Below are positions 1 through 44,193 of a stretch of 64,000 nucleotides of DNA, in pieces. A model generated the notes under the pieces. It had not been told where the DNA came from and made no database searches. It saw nothing but the letters and a program-made list of their open reading frames with translations. The position numbers and the translations under genes are program-made. The stretch's first letter is position 1, and each line of letters starts with the position of its first letter. The DNA comes from a virus: IMG/VR virus record IMGVR_UViG_3300044946_000220, positions 1 to 64,000 of that record, one strand, 5' to 3'.

Positions 1-149
1 GTCGAGGAGTCGCCGCTGGACGCCGCCGTCGAGGAGTAGCCGCTGGACGCCGCCGTCGAGGAGTCGCCGCTGGACGCCGCCGTCGAGGAGTAGCCGCTGG
101 ACGCCGCCGTCGAGGAGTAGCCGCTGGACGCCGCCGTCGAGGAGTAGCC
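1..149. repeat. 27-bp coding tandem repeat, at least 5.5 copies
   Basis: gtcgaggagt(c/a)gccgctggacgccgcc at 1, 28, 55, 82, 109 and partial at 136; encodes G(Y/D)SSTAASS on the minus strand. Confidence 0.95.
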
Positions 150-14000: not shown

Positions 14001-15370
14001 CCACCTGGCGAAGCCCTTGGCGATCAAGTCATGCACGTCCGGCTTCACGAACGGGTTGCCTGCGATCTCTTTCCAGTTCCGGTTCACTCGCATAAGCGGG
14101 CGCATGGTCTCGGCAATCTGCTTCCACGTGACAGGCTTCCACGTGTCTTCGTGGTGGACGCACGTCGTTACGATGAAGGCCGCGGCCAACTCGCGCTCAA
14201 CGCGACCGAAGGTTGCCGTGAGCGGCACCCATGAGCGAGCAAACAACTTCACGTCGGACGGCTTCATTTCTCCTCGTTTCACGGCGCGCGCATTATCCTG
14301 TGCGCGTTCCGCGCAGTTTCCGCTCCAGTAACGGCAGCCACTGGGACGCTACGGGATGGTCGGCGTGACGAATCGCGCCGACGGCGTCGCTCAGCGCGCC
14401 TTCCAATTCTCGGATGCGAGCCTTCAACTCCTCCGGTGTCGTTTCCCAACCGCCACTCTGTTCATCTTCACTCATCGGTCTCTCCTTTTTCGGTGCGCGC
14501 ACTTCCGTGCGTCAGTTGCCGCCCATTACGCGGTCGAGTTCCCCACACTCTTCGCGGTTCAAAAGCCGCTGCGTCCACTCGGAAGGGATCACGGTGTCGG
14601 CCGGGATGGGCCCGACGCCCTTCACTTCACCACCCGGGTTGAGGCCCATCATCCTGGCGACCAAGGTGGCTCCGAGGAAGCCTCGTGCCTGCACCAAACA
14701 AGCTCCGAGGAACTGTTGGCCGGTCGGCAGTGACCCATCCGCAAAGGACAGCCACCACCACGCGACGGGCTTCGTCGACTCCTCCGTCAGCACATCGACC
14801 GTCCGCTTCTCGAATTCGTCCTTCGTCAGCATGATCGCCCTCCGTTTTTCCAGGCGCGCATGGCACTGAGTCTACTTGACCCACTTGTCATAGACGCGGT
14901 GGTACCCGCACTTCGTACATGTGGCCGAAACGCGCACTGTATCACCGCCCCAAAAGACGTAAGCATACTCCGCCTCTTCCGTCGTCCAGGCGTGGGTGCA
15001 GAACGCCTCTCGGAAATACTGAACTAGCCACTTCATCGCCAATCTCCCAGTGCGCGCAGAGCCGTGAGCCTCACTCTTCCACATTCAGCGCTACCAGTAC
15101 CGGCACCTCAACTACCACATCGATTGGCCTCACGTTGCACGGACGGTTCACGAGGATGAAGCCGGAGGCCATTGTGACTGCGAAAAACGTGACGATTGCG
15201 CGGGTCATTGGACTGTCTCCTCTTCATCCTCTGCGTTCACTGCCACTGTCCCCGTACCCAGGCATGCGAAACAGGCCCAGTCAGAACGAAACGACGTTTC
15301 CCCAGTGCGATCGTCAACCGTCTGGCCGTGGCCCGTACCGTCGCACGACTCGCAGGGCTTGCGATCGGGC
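11065..15370 (-). other. Cluster of short, coupled leftward hypothetical ORFs (e.g. 11340-11861, 13015-13431, 13887-14282, 14512-14832)
   Basis: Overlapping stop/start junctions and purine-rich RBSs; several CxxC motifs; no function recognised. Confidence 0.6.
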
Positions 15371-15371
15371 G

Positions 15372-15995
15372 TCACGTCAACTCCGTTCGCTCAAACCTCT
15401 CGACTCGGAAACGCCCGAAGGTGGGTCTGAAGTCGCCAACGCCGACCAAACGGCCAGCGTTCGTTACCACATCCGACAACGAGTCCATGTCAATGTATTC
15501 CGGCGTTAGCACCTGTAGCTGAACCGTGGCCGTCCATCCAGACCGCATTGCGGGACGGTGGCGAGTAATGGCATTGCGTTGGATAACAACTCGACGCCTG
15601 TCGATGTAGTCCCAGTCCTTGACCCCAAATGAGGCGTGCTCGGTGAGAGACACGACGCCGGCCTTGAACAAATCCATCGCCGACTTTCGAGGAGATCTGG
15701 GATCCTGTCGGAACTTGGCCGCATGAATGATCGCCTGCCGCAAGTATTCTCCTGGTAAGCACAACTCTCCCGCATCGTCGCGATAAACGTAGGACTCAAC
15801 GTTGTCAGACTTCTTGGCCTTGCTGCCCTTCGCGGACTTCGCCTTCTCCTCTACCGCGTCACACGACCAACGGTGAAAAAGAAATGGGGCTGACCCAACG
15901 ATTGTGGCCTCTACCTGATAGGGTTCCCCCATCTGAATGTCGCACACTGCATCGCCGCTAACTTCGCCGATCGCCTCAATCTTTGTTTTTGTCAC
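15372..15995 (-). CDS. Stand-alone RAMP/Cas7-like RNA-binding protein
   Basis: GTG start with GGAGG RBS; VEATIVGSAPFLFH first strand, LCLPGEYLRQAI helix, RPAMRSGWTATVQL, Gly-rich loop AGRLVGVGDFRPTFGRF; no cas1/cas2 or CRISPR array in the window. Confidence 0.75.
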   Translation of the reverse strand: MTKTKIEAIGEVSGDAVCDIQMGEPYQVEATIVGSAPFLFHRWSCDAVEEKAKSAKGSKAKKSDNVESYVYRDDAGELCLPGEYLRQAIIHAAKFRQDPRSPRKSAMDLFKAGVVSLTEHASFGVKDWDYIDRRRVVIQRNAITRHRPAMRSGWTATVQLQVLTPEYIDMDSLSDVVTNAGRLVGVGDFRPTFGRFRVERFERTELT

Positions 15996-16009
15996 GCTGC
16001 CTCCGTCCT

Positions 16010-16172
16010 GCCCAAGGGGGCCCATACCTCGCCAGGCCGCGCCCGACCCGACCAATCCATGCCACAGACGACCACACCCGGCCTCTCCGAGGCACGCCAC
16101 GCCATTCCCAAATCTGCCTTACTAGCCGGACTCCGTATAGCCGGAGCATTCCACGCCAATTCCCGGCCAGCC
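16010..16172 (-). repeat. Pentamer-periodic (GGN-NN)n array with delimiting hairpins; candidate guide-like ncRNA
   Basis: 16118->16024 reads as 19 in-phase pentamers, 16 starting GG and 13 GGY; hairpins at 16010-16021 and 16130-16147; shorter tract at 16148-16172. Confidence 0.85.
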
Positions 16173-16178
16173 AAGTTT

Positions 16179-16382
16179 CTAAACCGCGCCCAAAACTCTC
16201 GCACAATCTTCGCCAGATCGCGTGAGCACAAAGGTGCCGCGATGCGCAGCCGCCGTCAGCATGCACCTGGCCTCCAACTCTCTCGCTGCCACCACCTCTG
16301 CCGCGTTACGCGGGATAACGAAACCGCCACAATCCAGGCCTCGGCTCAGAACTGATCTAATCCCCGCGCTCACCAGCATCAT
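16179..16382 (-). CDS. Small hypothetical protein, probably leaderless
   Basis: ATG 6 nt after the -10 box; first ORF of the leftward operon. Confidence 0.5.
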   Translation of the reverse strand: MMLVSAGIRSVLSRGLDCGGFVIPRNAAEVVAARELEARCMLTAAAHRGTFVLTRSGEDCARVLGAV

Positions 16383-16388
16383 GAGGGA

Positions 16389-16417
16389 AGACTAGGCGCG
16401 CGCGTTTGATCTGTCAA
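16389..16417 (-). promoter_or_regulatory. Leftward sigma70-type promoter
   Basis: TTGACA-17 nt-TAGTCT. Confidence 0.75.
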
Positions 16418-16431
16418 GTCAGTTTTTGAAG

Positions 16432-16460
16432 TTGACGTGCGAAACGTCCGGCGCTACCCT
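16432..16460 (+). promoter_or_regulatory. Rightward sigma70-type promoter (divergent pair)
   Basis: TTGACG-17 nt-TACCCT, 9 nt before ATG 16470. Confidence 0.6.
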
Positions 16461-16469
16461 ACTCGAAGC

Positions 16470-16673
16470 ATGACAGAACGCAACAGTCCGCTAGACGCCC
16501 ATCTTGCGCTGCGCATTTCCAGCCAGCTTTACCGGGACATCGAGGCGCTGCAGGGCGATGCTCACGCAAGCCTTGGGTACAGGGTTCCGCTTGCAGACAT
16601 CGTCCGCGCGCTTCTTGAGGAGGCTGTGATGCATCGCCGTCTCTCTGCTGAGAGAGCGGCTAAAAGCCTCTGA
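16470..16673 (+). CDS. Ribbon-helix-helix-like regulator
   Basis: HLALRISSQLYRDIEAL...LADIVRALLEEAV; first gene at the divergent switch. Confidence 0.65.
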   Translation: MTERNSPLDAHLALRISSQLYRDIEALQGDAHASLGYRVPLADIVRALLEEAVMHRRLSAERAAKSL

Positions 16674-16692: not shown

Positions 16693-17123
16693 GTGGACCC
16701 CAAGCTTCTCCCGCACGTTCTGCAGGCCCTACGCTTCACCAGGGCGCGTCTTGCGAACCCAAGCCATTGGACCAAGGGCTCTTCCGCTAGAGACGCGCTC
16801 GGCTATAAGCTGCCAGCTGGACATCCTGCAGCGGCCAGTCATTGCCTTATGGGCAGCTTGCCGCCGATGCCTGAAGCACTTCAGAACGAATATGGGCTGA
16901 ACTTGCAATTACGCTCAACGGCCAAGGCCCCGTGGAGTTCAACGACGCCGACGAGACGACGCATGCGGACGTCCTCCGCGCCATTGACGAGACGATTAGC
17001 CGGCTGTCTTCACCCCAAGCCAAGACATCGCAGTGTCAAGACTCACCTTCCCCAGAAACTCCCGCGCAGTGCGAACCTTCCCCGCCCTTATTGCAAACAG
17101 GGCCGACGAGCACAGAGTCGTAA
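16693..17123 (+). pseudogene. Phage hypothetical (DUF6197-like) protein split by a frameshift near 16880
   Basis: N-half WTKGSSARD..HCLMG and C-half VEFNDADETTHADVLRAIDETI are in different frames. Confidence 0.6.
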
Positions 17124-18105
17124 GGGCGGCGTGAGCGAAGTCCCTTTGGACTGGAATGTCCCTGAGGCGGTGGAAGTCTAGCTCAACTTCGTCGCACCAG
17201 TCGTCTATCTTGGCGCGGTAGACGTCCAGCTGCTCCTTTAGTTCGGGGAACGCTTGCTCCACCTCAGAGTTCTCACCGGCACGCGCAATCTCAAACAGGC
17301 TGCGCGGGTTGCAGCCGTCTTTCGCCCTATGTAGCAGTACGTAGGCAGCCGCTTTCGATTTTTGGCGATTGAAGTGTCCGTCTACCGTAACGAACCCCTC
17401 CTGTACCAACGGGTTCATCGTCTCTAGCGCCGCCGCGATCTCAGCAAACGAGCTGAGTGCAAACTCGCGTACCGGCGTTGCCGTAGGCAAGTACAGCGAG
17501 GCCACGTCACGCGCTGACAACTCAATCTGCGTGCGCAGATCGCGCCCACCCAGAAGCGTCAGGCTCGCCTTCTCGTGTCGTACAACGATCCTGTTGTAAG
17601 GGCTGCCGAGTTCAAAGAAGAACGAGCACCCAACGCCCTCCACGGGAAGCTCTAGGCCAACTTCATCCACCGTCTTCCAGAACAGCTCCTTGAAAGTAAA
17701 CCCAAAGCCGTTGCATTCTCCCCCGGCGTCCGGTGTCCCGCTGGTTGCAACGCGCCATTGGCCTGCGTACCAGTACACTTGGCAAAGCGAGCCGTCAACC
17801 TTCTCCTGAACGCAGGCCGAGGACCAGTCAATCGTCGCACACTCCGACATTCCTTCGTTGAAGAATCGGTCCAGCGATCGGCACACCACGCGGTAATTGT
17901 CAGCGGTGTCAAGAATGATTCCGCGGCACTGGACCACGAGCGGATGTGCGCGGCACTTGTCGGAGTCAATCTGATCGTACTTGTACAAGTGCAACTGCGG
18001 GAACTCGGCGCTGGCGCGCACCTGGATGCCATATTCCTCGGTGAGCTTGGCTTCCGTGCCGCCCTCGTCGAAGAACTGCTGGAGTAGAATGCGCTCATTG
18101 CCCAT
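16996..18105 (-). CDS. T4 Rnl1-like RNA ligase
   Basis: QCRGIILD, DRFFN, motif I EKVDGS, FFELGSPYNRIV, EGFV, KSKAAAY. Confidence 0.9.
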   Translation of the reverse strand: MGNERILLQQFFDEGGTEAKLTEEYGIQVRASAEFPQLHLYKYDQIDSDKCRAHPLVVQCRGIILDTADNYRVVCRSLDRFFNEGMSECATIDWSSACVQEKVDGSLCQVYWYAGQWRVATSGTPDAGGECNGFGFTFKELFWKTVDEVGLELPVEGVGCSFFFELGSPYNRIVVRHEKASLTLLGGRDLRTQIELSARDVASLYLPTATPVREFALSSFAEIAAALETMNPLVQEGFVTVDGHFNRQKSKAAAYVLLHRAKDGCNPRSLFEIARAGENSEVEQAFPELKEQLDVYRAKIDDWCDEVELDFHRLRDIPVQRDFAHAALTTLCSSALFAIRAGKVRTAREFLGKVSLDTAMSWLGVKTAG

Positions 18106-18171
18106 ACCCTCCCCACCGATCGACGCGCGGTGCGGGCCAATCGAAGGCATGGTTAGAGGATTCAATCAGCC

Positions 18172-43852: not shown

Positions 43853-44190
43853 CGCAATCCAGCCTCACCGCCGCCCTCATCCGCGAGTGCTCCGCCTGCC
43901 CACACGTCGCCGTGGCCTGGGTTTCGCCCTTGTCTACCGCCTGCACCATCGAAGCTGCCCGCACCCAGCGCTGGCGCACGCACAAGATGTGGCGGACCTT
44001 GGAGGTAATCTACGCAGATTCCATGCAATGGCGCGACTGCTCGGCCGTAGCGGCCAGCATTCGCAAGGCGTTTCCGGCGGTTGACGTAAGCGTGGTGTCC
44101 TACTCGTTTCACCCTGGCGGCGGGTGGAAAGACGTCTACCGCAAAGACGCGGTCAAGGCGCCGGTTGACACCAAGCGGTCGAGGCGCTAG
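43849..44190 (+). CDS. Hypothetical protein
   Basis: 113-aa ORF coupled to the recombinase. Confidence 0.45.
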   Translation: MTQSSLTAALIRECSACPHVAVAWVSPLSTACTIEAARTQRWRTHKMWRTLEVIYADSMQWRDCSAVAASIRKAFPAVDVSVVSYSFHPGGGWKDVYRKDAVKAPVDTKRSRR

Positions 44191-44193
44191 GCT
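44165..44193 (+). promoter_or_regulatory. sigma70-type promoter
   Basis: ccggTTGACA-17 nt-TAGGCT. Confidence 0.65.

What the first reader, a model, noticed from the sequence alone, without database searches (positions are those of the whole stretch)
15372..16417. Stand-alone RAMP/Cas7-like gene co-transcribed with a (GGY-NN)n pentamer-repeat RNA: candidate non-CRISPR RNA-guided system
Seen: one leftward promoter (16389-16417) drives a 67-aa ORF, then a noncoding tract, then a 207-aa protein ending in a Gly-rich loop (GVGDFRPTFGRF). The tract reads ggcag atttg ggaat ggcgt ggcgt gcctc ggaga ggccg ggtgt ggtcg tctgt ggcat ggatt ggtcg ggtcg ggcgc ggcct ggcga ggtat: 19 in-phase pentamers with a near-constant GGN and a freely varying dinucleotide. 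A hairpin closes it (16010-21), and a second hairpin (16130-47) separates it from a shorter upstream tract. Established: Cas7-family RAMPs oligomerise along guide RNA with a fixed nucleotide period. Inference: each subunit binds one GGY and presents NN, so the dinucleotides AG,TG,AT,GT,GT,TC,GA,CG,GT,CG,GT,AT,TT,CG,CG,GC,CT,GA,AT form a discontinuous guide against a rival phage or host locus. Read as the first two bases of codons they give a protein-like string (..VVS[D/E]RVRV[I/M][F/L]RRAL[D/E]..), which would fit targeting that skips wobble positions; this part is speculative. There is no cas1/cas2, partner nuclease or classical array. I recall recent reports of viral RAMP + GGY/NN systems (VIPR) but cannot verify them here, so novelty needs checking.
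Basis: partly seen in the sequence, partly recalled or inferred. Interest (0 to 1): 0.95.

Follow-up and report, generated by a model that had tools for sequence, protein, structure and literature searches.

The report
Phage VIPR locus: Vipr plus guide RNA

Summary
ORF 15372-15995(-) is a sequence homologue of the solved SUSP1 Vipr protein (PDB 36pp, E 5e-9). The residues that hold the two Gs and the pyrimidine are conserved. It models confidently (pLDDT 95) as a Cas7/Csm3-type RAMP. The tract 16118-16024(-) has 19 in-phase GGYNN units and is the only such tract in the 102-kb soil-phage genome. It ends in a small hairpin (16021-16010) that abuts the vipr ribosome-binding site. In 172 related loci, such tracts flank vipr on its own strand (425 on that strand, 4 on the other). 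In those tracts GGY is fixed and NN has near-maximal entropy. That is the definition of VIPR (Vipr + vrRNA; bioRxiv 10.64898/2026.04.26.720920, .720927, 2026.10.15.759431).

Particulars here:
- The locus has a single upstream guide.
- No accessory (vap) gene is conserved in this clade.
- The tail is a hairpin, not a pseudoknot.
- No target was found for the guide in its own genome, in the IMG/VR windows tried, or in 802 bacterial genomes.
- Expression is untested.

This scan has already noted VIPR on other DNA: 627 notes in at least 412 genomes.

The parts
16389..16417 (-). Promoter-like site TTGACA-N17-TAGTCT. It is the presumed start of the transcript that carries the guide and vipr.
   Evidence: Read directly from the sequence. 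The motif TTGAC[AT]-N16-18-TAnnnT occurs 8 times in the 102-kb genome, against 0-3 (mean about 1) in 20 Markov shuffles, and 5 of the 8 have a TAGnnT -10. The tool's consensus scan does not call it. Function is inferred.
16179..16382 (-). 67-aa ORF between the promoter and the guide. It is uncertain whether this is a real gene or an untranslated leader.
   Evidence: It has no Pfam, PHROG, PADLOC or NCBIfam match. It is not found next to vipr in any of 172 related loci. Its codon-position GC is 0.63/0.54/0.63, against about 0.60/0.44/0.70 in the phage's clear genes. Its ATG lies only 6 nt after the -10, so it would be leaderless.
16131..16146 (-). Small hairpin CTCCG-GCTATA-CGGAG that follows a weak, degenerate pentamer stretch (about 16172-16113, 4 of 12 GGY in phase). 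It may be a relic of an older upstream guide or part of the leader.
   Evidence: The stem is not part of the MFE fold as such. Its role is unknown.
16024..16118 (-). vrRNA repeat region of 19 in-phase GGYNN units. The guide dinucleotides are AG TG AT GT GT TC GA CG GT CG GT AT TT CG CG GC CT GA AT. Units 2, 6 and 11 lack GG, and units 3, 7 and 13 have A at position 3.
   Evidence: The same kind of tract flanks vipr on its own strand in 86 of the first 92 related loci, and there are 425 such tracts on that strand against 4 on the other across 172 loci. The RNA ends are not known.
16010..16021 (-). 3' tail of the vrRNA: a 4-bp GC hairpin (GCCC-CCUU-GGGC) in register with the repeats.
   Evidence: It is present in the MFE fold. 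The same GGGCC-loop-GGGC element closes the vipr-proximal guide in the five closest loci (70-78% Vipr identity), with varying loops (UUCG, GCAA, CUAA). RNAalifold predicts 4 pairs, 2 of them with a both-sides change.
15993..16004 (-). Shine-Dalgarno GGAGG (16004-16000), a 4-nt spacer, and the GTG start codon of vipr (15995-15993), 5 nt after the tail hairpin.
   Evidence: Sequence read directly. Homologue lengths of 207-214 aa and alignments that start at residues 1-9 fix this start rather than GTG 16100.
15372..15995 (-). vipr: a 207-aa Vipr protein, a minimal Cas7-like RAMP with G-loop GVGDFRPTFGRF.
   Evidence: It matches PDB 36pp 'SUSP1 Vipr protein' at E 5.1e-9 over residues 32-201. It matches PHROG 4652 at E 1e-21. 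The AF2 model has pLDDT 95.2 and pTM 0.87. The Foldseek top hits are Csm3/Cas7 of type III-A, type VII and Cas7-11, at E about 1e-7 and TM about 0.54. There are 7029 homologues and 1497 clusters at 50% identity.
15205..15375 (-). 56-aa double CxxCxGxG zinc-finger ORF whose GTG overlaps the vipr stop (GTGA). It is only a candidate partner gene.
   Evidence: It matches Pfam DnaJ_CXXCXGXG at E 2.7e-5, below the cut-off, and PHROG Q-like at 2e-4. It is not conserved next to vipr in related loci, so it cannot be called a vap.

Best explanation
This is a VIPR (Viral Interference Programmable Repeat) locus of an uncultured 102-kb soil phage. It consists of vipr (15372-15995, minus strand) and one vrRNA gene directly upstream.

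The vrRNA is the 19-unit GGYNN tract (16118-16024) closed by a short GC hairpin tail (16021-16010).

By homology with the characterised SUSP1 and P. fulva systems, the expected mechanism is as follows. Vipr protomers bind the RNA one per pentamer. They flip out and hold G1, G2 and Y3, and present N4N5. The resulting helical filament reads double-stranded DNA by the one-base-skip rule (target NNxNNx...). It forms an R-loop triplex and blocks transcription of the bound gene. That gene is most likely in a competing phage, satellite or prophage.

Shown here:
- homology and fold of the protein;
- conservation of the GGY-contact residues;
- the repeat tract and its uniqueness in the genome;
- the family-wide, strand-specific linkage of such tracts to vipr;
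- the hypervariability of NN;
- the conserved tail hairpin.

Inferred:
- transcription from the 16417-16389 promoter;
- processing of a discrete RNA;
- RNP formation;
- DNA silencing;
- the nature of the target, which was not found.
For: Protein:
- phmmer against PDB returns one hit only, the SUSP1 Vipr protein (36pp_D), at E 5.1e-9 over query 32-201 and chain 8-190 of 202.
- In that alignment, the residues that the cryo-EM paper names as GGY and DNA contacts map as follows: H17->H41, K33->K56, E71->E83, K82->K94, K88->R100, R138->R147, D177->D188, W178->F189 and R179->R190.
- The AF2 model has pLDDT 95.2. Its Foldseek hits are Csm3/Cas7 RAMPs at E about 1e-7 and probability 1.00.

RNA:
- 10 of 12 units have GGY in phase, against a null maximum of 4-6.
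- It is the only tract in the genome.

Family:
- In 172 loci encoding 49-78% identical Viprs, 425 tracts of at least 8 in-phase GG lie on the vipr strand against 4 on the other. They sit just upstream and/or downstream of vipr.
- Unit composition is G 0.96, G 0.90, Y 0.87, and N4/N5 entropy is 1.98/2.00 bits.

Tail: the hairpin is shared with the closest loci and shows compensatory change.

Skip rule in this clade: 337 ten-unit windows reach at least 18/20 under a 1-nt skip, against 26 (0-nt skip), 16 (2-nt skip) and 23 (shuffled units). This signal is driven by one guide.

Context:
- The genome is a phage (terminase, DnaB, clamp, RNA ligases) and an IMG/VR record with terminal repeats.
- It has no Cas1 and no CRISPR-like repeats.
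- It shows no self-targeting, with a best own-genome match of 61%, as the papers report for natural systems.
Against: - No RNA data exist, so the transcript, its ends and its association with Vipr are unproven.
- No target at or near the papers' 80% NN-match threshold was found anywhere I could search.
- Three of 19 units lack GG and three have A for Y, so part of the tract may be decayed or not bound.
- The SUSP1-type pseudoknot tail and a vap gene are absent.
- Identity to the experimentally studied Vipr is low. The match is at E 5e-9, and tblastn against SUSP1-like E. coli phages gives about 30% over 62% of the protein.
- R39 and M72 of SUSP1 are not conserved (A60 and Y84).
- The skip-rule support in this clade rests essentially on a single guide family (L108).
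Confidence: 0.92

Rival explanations
1. The locus is a VIPR locus whose single guide is decayed or orphaned. The tract is a remnant, with 6 of 19 units off-consensus and no detectable target. Vipr is then kept for guides supplied in trans by other elements, or is itself on the way out.
For: Units ATTTG, GCCTC and TCTGT lack GG, and GGAAT, GGAGA and GGATT have A at position 3. No target was found in any search. Most relatives carry several guides, while this phage carries one. Trans use of Vipr by foreign solo vrRNAs is documented.
Against: The papers describe internal degeneracy of vrRNAs as frequent, and single-vrRNA systems as real and expressed. The 3' eight units and the tail hairpin are intact. 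vipr is intact, with all key contact residues. The searchable databases sample soil phages very thinly, so a missing target is weak evidence.
Confidence: 0.15
2. The tract is coding. The gene would start at GTG 16100 and the pentamer tract would encode a Gly/Trp/Arg-rich N-terminal extension of a 242-aa protein.
For: An open frame runs from 16100 to 15372. A few database homologues are called at 233-275 aa.
Against: The great majority of close homologues are 200-216 aa, and tblastn matches begin at query residues 1-9. An SD (GGAGG) sits 4 nt before GTG 15995. The extension has GC1/2/3 of 0.77/0.66/0.69, unlike any clear gene of the phage. In relatives the upstream sequence keeps the 5-nt, not a 3-nt, periodicity, with positions 4-5 at maximal entropy. 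The SUSP1 Vipr chain of 202 aa aligns from its residue 8 to query residue 32.
Confidence: 0.02
3. The protein is a degenerate fragment of a class 1 CRISPR-Cas system (a lone Cas7/Csm3), and the G-rich tract is an unrelated leader or G-quadruplex element.
For: The best structural matches in the fold library are Csm3/Cas7 subunits.
Against: The only sequence match in PDB is Vipr, not any Cas7. No PADLOC or NCBIfam Cas model matches. The genome has no Cas1 and no CRISPR-type repeats. The pentamer tracts co-occur with this protein family strand-specifically in 172 loci. The fold library predates the release of the Vipr structures.
Confidence: 0.01

Closest known systems
VIPR systems (Vipr + vrRNA). 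The reference is the type II system of Escherichia phage SUSP1 and of a P. fulva prophage (bioRxiv 10.64898/2026.04.26.720920; structures in 10.64898/2026.04.26.720927; PDB 36pp).
   Same: - The Vipr protein is homologous (E 5e-9), with conserved G1/G2/Y3 contact residues and G-loop.
- The fold is a minimal single-RRM RAMP.
- A GGYNN tandem-repeat RNA gene lies on the same strand immediately upstream of vipr.
- A structured 3' tail follows the repeats.
- The genome is a phage without cas1/cas2 or a CRISPR array.
- There is no self-target.
   Different: - Sequence identity is only about 25-30%, so this is a separate and very large, mostly soil/metagenomic clade.
- There is one guide instead of four.
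- The guide has 19 units, against 9-16 in the reference.
- The tail is a 4-bp tetraloop hairpin abutting the vipr SD, not a pseudoknot.
- No vap1-like gene is present, and no conserved neighbour exists in 172 related loci.
- The target is unknown.
- The paper's type (I-VII) cannot be assigned, because its tree and tables are not held.
Single-vrRNA and stand-alone-vipr VIPR systems mentioned in the same paper (Results 'Diverse VIPR systems'; Methods 'discovery pipeline')
   Same: The locus has one vrRNA, and vipr occurs as a stand-alone gene rather than a two-gene operon.
   Different: The main text names no representative, so identity with a particular type could not be tested.
Cas7/Csm3 backbone subunits of class 1 CRISPR effectors (for example 9ash_F, 6ifl_F, 8z4l_F)
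   Same: It shares the RRM core, G-loop and thumb. Both oligomerise along a guide RNA with periodic base flipping.
   Different: - There is no sequence-level match.
- The period is 5 nt with three bases sequestered, against 6 nt with one flipped.
- The guide is built of repeats rather than a spacer.
- There is no Cas5, Cas6, Cas10, Cas1 or Cas2.
- It is viral rather than cellular.
Phage DSL-LC04 (OR003939.1, WJZ48083.1)
   Same: This is the closest named phage record. Its Vipr is 59% identical, it has an upstream pentamer tract of about 320 nt, and a hairpin lies just before the SD.
   Different: The gene is annotated there as a 'helix-turn-helix transcriptional regulator'. It has more than one upstream guide. 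The downstream overlapping gene is different, a 147-aa lysine-rich protein.

Membership tests
VIPR system | A Vipr protein that is homologous to an experimentally characterised Vipr | tested here: met
   phmmer against all PDB chains gives a single hit, the SUSP1 Vipr protein 36pp_D, at E 5.1e-9 over query 32-201 and chain 8-190 of 202.
VIPR system | A minimal RAMP fold with a single RRM core, a glycine-rich loop and a thumb | tested here: met
   The AF2 model has pLDDT 95.2. Foldseek matches Csm3/Cas7 subunits at E about 1e-7, probability 1.00 and TM about 0.54. The G-loop GVGDFRPTFGRF lies at 185-196. A beta-hairpin at 130-150 carries R147 (=SUSP1 thumb R138). I assigned the thumb by alignment, not by superposition on 36pp.
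VIPR system | Residues that recognise G1, G2 and Y3 of the repeat (SUSP1 H17, D177, R138, W178, R179, E71) | tested here: met
   The alignment, read, gives H41, D188, R147, F189 (aromatic for W), R190 and E83. M72 maps to Y84 and R39 maps to A60, so these two are not conserved.
VIPR system | A vrRNA gene: at least 4 (typically 9-16) tandem YNNGG/GGYNN units next to vipr on the same strand | tested here: met
   There are 19 units at 16118-16024(-), 16 with GG and 16 with Y. 10 of 12 are in phase, against a null maximum of 4-6. It is unique in the genome.
VIPR system | GGY conserved and NN hypervariable across the family | tested here: met
   Across 5992 units from 314 unique tracts of 172 related loci, composition is G 0.96, G 0.90, Y 0.87, and N4/N5 entropy is 1.98/2.00 bits. 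G1 and G2 are partly fixed by how tracts were called; Y3, N4 and N5 are not. Variation of this particular guide between strains could not be tested, because only identical copies were found.
VIPR system | A conserved structured 3' tail after the repeats | tested here: met
   The GCCC-CCUU-GGGC hairpin lies at 16021-16010. The same element is found in the 5 closest loci, with 2 of 4 pairs showing a both-sides change. It is a hairpin, not the SUSP1-clade pseudoknot. The sample is small (6 sequences).
VIPR system | The guide recognises DNA by the 1-nt skip rule and has a natural target with at least 80% NN match | tested here: inconclusive
   The rule is visible in this clade: 337 windows under a 1-nt skip against 16-26 under other skips or shuffled units, driven by one guide. 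For the window's own guide no target was found. The best matches were 61% in its own genome and 66% in held loci. Seven IMG/VR pattern scans gave only seeded chance hits. None was found in 802+5 bacterial genomes.
VIPR system | An accessory vap gene next to vipr (typical, not universal) | tested here: not met
   No neighbour of the window's vipr recurs in 172 related loci. Clustering all ORFs of those loci finds no gene shared beyond small near-identical groups. The overlapping 56-aa zinc-finger ORF is not conserved. The paper itself reports stand-alone vipr genes, so this does not exclude membership.
VIPR system | A viral or proviral setting without CRISPR array or adaptation genes | tested here: met
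   Phage hallmark genes are present. The genome is a virus record with terminal repeats and no Cas1. The only sequences repeated 3 or more times are at the termini.
VIPR system | The vrRNA is expressed as a discrete RNA of about 100 nt and co-purifies with Vipr | not testable with these tools
   No RNA run holds this DNA.
Class 1 CRISPR-Cas (Cas7/Csm3 subunit) | Association with a CRISPR array and other cas genes, and a match to Cas7 family models | tested here: not met
   There is no PADLOC or NCBIfam Cas model hit, no Cas1 and no array. The similarity is at fold level only.

The most novel reading that the evidence does not exclude
In this vap-less soil clade the vipr-proximal guide would be more than a neighbour of vipr: it would be part of the vipr 5' leader. 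Its tail hairpin ends 5 nt before the Shine-Dalgarno sequence, an arrangement shared with the closest relatives and with phage DSL-LC04. Vipr binding to, or processing of, its own guide could therefore set vipr translation. That would be a built-in protein:guide dosage control not described for SUSP1. Separately, the guide's target may be a class not yet sampled, for example a host gene or an unknown soil satellite, because nothing in IMG/VR or 800 genomes matches.
Probability: 0.12. Interest if true: 0.45.

Novelty: new member of a known kind. Interest (0 to 1): 0.25.

Why it matters
This adds a clean, minimal example to a system described only months ago: one protein gene plus one guide in about 750 bp. 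It comes from an uncultured soil phage far from the enterobacterial and Pseudomonas models. It belongs to what looks like a very large clade (7029 homologues, 1497 clusters at 50% identity) that has no accessory gene. Such a two-part unit is a convenient test case for three questions: whether Vipr alone suffices for silencing, how a simple hairpin tail replaces the pseudoknot, and how far the GGY contacts tolerate W->F and off-consensus units. It does not open a new question by itself. The mechanism, the code and the ecological idea are already published, and this scan has met VIPR in hundreds of genomes.

Tried and rejected
**Target searches for the 19-unit guide under the 1-nt skip rule. All were negative.**
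- Own 102-kb genome: best 23/38. The 100% hit under a 3-nt skip is the tract itself.
- 172 held vipr loci: best 25/38, within the range of unit-shuffled guides.
- Five exact 9-unit windows against IMG/VR gave two hits, L173 and L174. Their non-seeded units match at chance.
- All five of those windows contained an off-consensus unit, so I ran two more scans.
  - Units 12-19 gave 12 hits. The best extension was 11/22, in three contigs of one sample, and is not significant after multiplicity.
  - Units 7-10 and 12-16, with unit 11 as a wildcard, gave L187 and L188.
- L187 falls in frame in an 84-aa ORF reading ...RWGVSQDRVREILRRAGDA. Its non-seeded positions match 8/20, and the protein has only one other homologue, which fits the guide worse. 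I rejected it as chance.
- 13-unit core with up to 3 mismatches: no hit in 401 genomes of the phylum of L081's genome (record title: Acidobacteriota), in 401 of the phylum of L083's genome (Myxococcales), or in 5 genomes carrying related proviruses.

**Other lines that led nowhere.**
- Hammerhead or other ribozymes between guides: Rfam finds nothing in the window or in 11 related loci.
- vap candidates (zinc-finger ORF 15205-15375, ORF67, divergent 78-aa ORF 16437-16673): none is conserved near vipr, and none has a family match above cut-off.
- Folding of 16150-15990 is no more stable than shuffles (z 0.11). This fits a protein-bound repeat and gives no further structure.
- No RNA holder is listed for this DNA. 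The contigs laid from four soil runs are identical to the window, so they say nothing about NN variability.
- 'relatives' is not available for a virus record.
- VIPR type assignment was not possible, because the paper's supplementary tables are not held.
- A guide of L081 matches the window's RNA-ligase-like gene at 17142-17174 in 20/22 positions over 11 units, but only 26/46 overall. The shuffled control gives windows of the same quality, so I treated it as chance.
Full report
**What is there**

All elements lie on the minus strand, in this order:
- a promoter-like TTGACA-N17-TAGTCT at 16417-16389;
- a 67-aa ORF at 16382-16179;
- a short hairpin at 16146-16131;
- a 4-bp GC hairpin at 16021-16010;
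- GGAGG at 16004-16000 and a GTG at 15995 that opens a 207-aa ORF ending at 15372;
- a 56-aa double CxxCxGxG ORF whose GTG overlaps that stop codon.

**Is the tract more than chance?**

Yes. In the best 12-unit window, 10 units have GGY in phase. The next best site on either strand of the 64 kb has 5. In 30 first-order Markov simulations the maximum was 4-6. The window is the first 64 kb of a 102,034-bp virus record, and the tract is the only one in the whole record. Contigs from two further soil metagenomes carry 15930-16135 and 15956-16106 without a single difference, so it is not an assembly artefact.

**What the protein is**

Pfam, NCBIfam and PADLOC give nothing for it. PHROGs gives an unnamed family (phrog_4652, E 1e-21).

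A sequence search of all PDB chains returns one hit, 'SUSP1 Vipr protein' (36pp_D), at E 5.1e-9. It aligns query 32-201 with chain 8-190 of 202, including GVGDFRPTFGRF against GVGDWRPRFGRF.

I read that alignment against the residues the cryo-EM paper names:
- The G1 contacts H17 and D177 correspond to H41 and D188.
- The G2 contacts R138 and W178 correspond to R147 and F189.
- The Y3 pocket residues R179 and E71 correspond to R190 and E83.
- The DNA-backbone contacts K33, K82 and K88 correspond to K56, K94 and R100.
- R39 and M72 are not conserved (A60 and Y84).

An AlphaFold2 model built on 57 diverse homologues is confident (pLDDT 95.2, pTM 0.87). Foldseek against solved structures returns Csm3/Cas7 subunits of type III-A, type VII and Cas7-11 complexes, at E about 1e-7, probability 1.00 and TM about 0.54. 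That library stops on 8 April 2026, so it does not yet contain the Vipr structures.

The family is large: 7029 proteins at E<=1e-3 in the 90%-clustered collection, and 1497 clusters at 50% identity. Close homologues are 200-216 aa. This fixes GTG 15995 as the start.

**Is the tract translated?**

The alternative start at 16100 would make the tract coding. Four observations contradict it:
- homologue lengths;
- the SD before GTG 15995;
- the codon-position GC of the 35-codon extension, 0.77/0.66/0.69 against about 0.60/0.44/0.70 in clear genes;
- the 5-nt rather than 3-nt periodicity of the same region in relatives.

**Do relatives have the repeats?**

I fetched 172 loci that encode Viprs 49-78% identical to this one. 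They come from IMG/VR, species-representative genomes and JGI metagenomes.
- Tracts of at least 8 in-phase GG occur 425 times on the vipr strand and 4 times on the opposite strand, in 831 kb.
- They sit immediately upstream (-80 to -340) and/or immediately downstream of vipr.
- Over 5992 units the composition is G 0.96, G 0.90 and Y 0.87. Positions 4 and 5 have 1.98 and 2.00 bits of entropy.
- The median tract has 16 units.

This is the pattern that defines vrRNAs.

**What it is called**

VIPR (Viral Interference Programmable Repeat) systems were described in April 2026. They consist of a Vipr protein, an early-branching RAMP, and vrRNAs of 9-16 YNNGG repeats followed by a conserved structured tail. 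They are mostly in phages and proviruses. They recognise dsDNA by a code in which only NN pairs and one target base is skipped per unit, usually the wobble base. They silence transcription of competing elements.

The companion paper shows one protomer per repeat, GGY sequestered, NN presented, and an R-loop triplex.

A third paper shows anti-satellite function, decoy guides and solo guides aimed at rivals' vipr genes.

**Particulars of this locus**

1. There is a single guide, upstream of vipr. The paper mentions single-vrRNA systems.

2. The tail is a 4-bp hairpin in register with the repeats (GGTAT GGGCC CCCTT GGGCA).
 - The five closest loci (L094-L097 and L107, 70-78% identity) end their vipr-proximal guide in the same way: GGCAA GGGCC-loop-GGGC, with UUCG, GCAA or CUAA loops. 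Their SD follows directly.
 - L107 has GCGC/GCGC in place of GCCC/GGGC. RNAalifold finds 4 pairs, two of them with a both-sides change.
 - More distant relatives use other endings, for example GGCAAGGATTTTT, or CCCCA-CGT-TGGGG plus a T-run in phage DSL-LC04.

3. There is no accessory gene.
 - None of twelve window ORFs around vipr is found in any related locus.
 - An all-against-all clustering of 6174 ORFs from those loci finds nothing shared beyond vipr, except frames overlapping vipr or the arrays, and small near-identical groups.
 - Small zinc-ribbon ORFs are scattered near vipr in some loci, without a fixed position.

4. Three units lack GG and three carry A at position 3.

5. The promoter is plausible but unproven. 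The tool's scan rejects it. However, TTGAC[AT]-N16-18-TAnnnT occurs 8 times in the genome against about 1 expected, mostly with TAGnCT.

**The code in this clade, and the target**

I tested the skip rule with 251 distinct guides from the held loci against 1.9 Mb of held sequence. The test used ten-unit windows and counted those with at least 18/20 matches outside the tracts.

| Condition | Windows with at least 18/20 |
|---|---|
| 0-nt skip | 26 |
| 1-nt skip | 337 (24 of them perfect) |
| 2-nt skip | 16 |
| 1-nt skip, shuffled unit order | 23 |

. The 3-nt skip gave 316 windows, which I attribute to repeat tracts that escaped the mask; I did not verify this.

Nearly all the 1-nt-skip signal comes from one 13-unit guide, downstream of vipr in L108. 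Read antisense, it spells GGx GAx TTx CGx CCx ACx TAx GGx CGx TTx. These are the codons of the G-loop GDFRPTYGRF of other phages' vipr genes. It matches 19-24 of 26 positions in all but one of the held loci. Its own vipr and the window's vipr (+ strand, 15409-15447) sit at the low end, with 20/26. This supports the rule here, but it rests on essentially one guide.

For the window's own guide I found no target:
- 61% at best in its own genome;
- nothing above shuffled-guide level in the held loci;
- only seeded chance hits in seven IMG/VR pattern scans;
- none within 3 mismatches of the 13-unit core in 802 genomes of two soil phyla and 5 provirus-bearing genomes.

The absence of a self-target agrees with the papers. 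The absence of any target is weak evidence, because IMG/VR could only be searched by exact pattern and soil phages are thinly sampled.

**Context**

The record is a phage. It encodes a terminase large subunit, a DnaB-type helicase, a sliding clamp, RNA ligases and an exonuclease. It has terminal repeats by IMG/VR's classing and a tRNA-Asn. It has no Cas1 and no CRISPR-like repeats. It is present in soil metagenomes of at least four studies. The host is unknown.

**Verdict**

This is a genuine VIPR locus: a new member of a known kind, in a large vap-less, mostly environmental clade. The mechanism is taken from the characterised homologues, not shown here. Expression, RNP formation and the target remain open. 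Its reading of raw sequence was nevertheless remarkably accurate.

Noticed in passing
L108:1400-1464 (+), downstream of its vipr; matching site in the window at 15409-15447 (+ strand, inside vipr): A 13-unit vrRNA in a related metagenomic locus spells, antisense and with the skipped base at wobble positions, the codons of the Vipr G-loop (GDFRPTYGRF). It matches 19-24 of 26 positions in all but one of the 173 held loci. Its own vipr and the window's vipr are at the low end (20/26, 77%). This looks like an anti-VIPR guide aimed at the most constrained motif of rivals' vipr. The class is in print for SUSP1-like phages (10.64898/2026.10.15.759431).
   Followed up: partly
whole record G000; window sites 16417-16389(-), 36527-36499(-), 38191-38164(-), 44165-44193(+), 49124-49097(-), 63264-63237(-): The promoter-like motif TTGAC[AT]-N16-18-TAnnnT occurs 8 times in the 102-kb genome, against 0-3 in shuffles. 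Five of the 8 have a TAGnnT -10. It is probably the phage's early or middle promoter class.
   Followed up: partly
window 1-132 and record 101874-102017: Both ends of the record consist of the same roughly 27-nt tandem repeat (GTCGAGGAGT[C/A]GCCGCTGGACGCCGCC). These are the only sequences repeated 3 or more times in the genome. IMG/VR classes the record as having direct terminal repeats, so the 'terminal repeat' may be a tandem-repeat region inside a gene where the assembly broke.
   Followed up: no
L189 (OR003939.1, Phage DSL-LC04) 2001-2618: The closest named phage record annotates its vipr homologue (59% identical) as a 'helix-turn-helix transcriptional regulator'. The 320-nt 'intergenic' region upstream is a pentamer guide array.
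   Followed up: partly
L090:3607-4383; L033:965-2903; L062:2659-2953: Some relatives carry very long uninterrupted in-phase tracts. L090, a contig titled Microlunatus sp., has 119 units (595 nt). L033 has 73 units. These are far beyond the 9-16 units of the reference vrRNAs. They may be staggered or overlapping arrays.
   Followed up: no
window 17142-17174 (+), inside the RNA-ligase-like gene 16996-18165(-): The upstream guide of an Acidobacteriota provirus (L081:2830-2944) matches 20 of 22 positions over 11 consecutive units under the 1-nt skip rule, but only 26/46 overall. Shuffled controls give windows of equal quality, so it is probably chance.
   Followed up: partly
window 16437-16673 (+): A 78-aa ORF is transcribed divergently from the VIPR promoter region. 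It has no family match and is not conserved near vipr elsewhere. Its sequence (…LALRISSQLYRDIEAL…PLADIVRALLEEAV…) looks to me like a ribbon-helix-helix regulator, by eye only.
   Followed up: no
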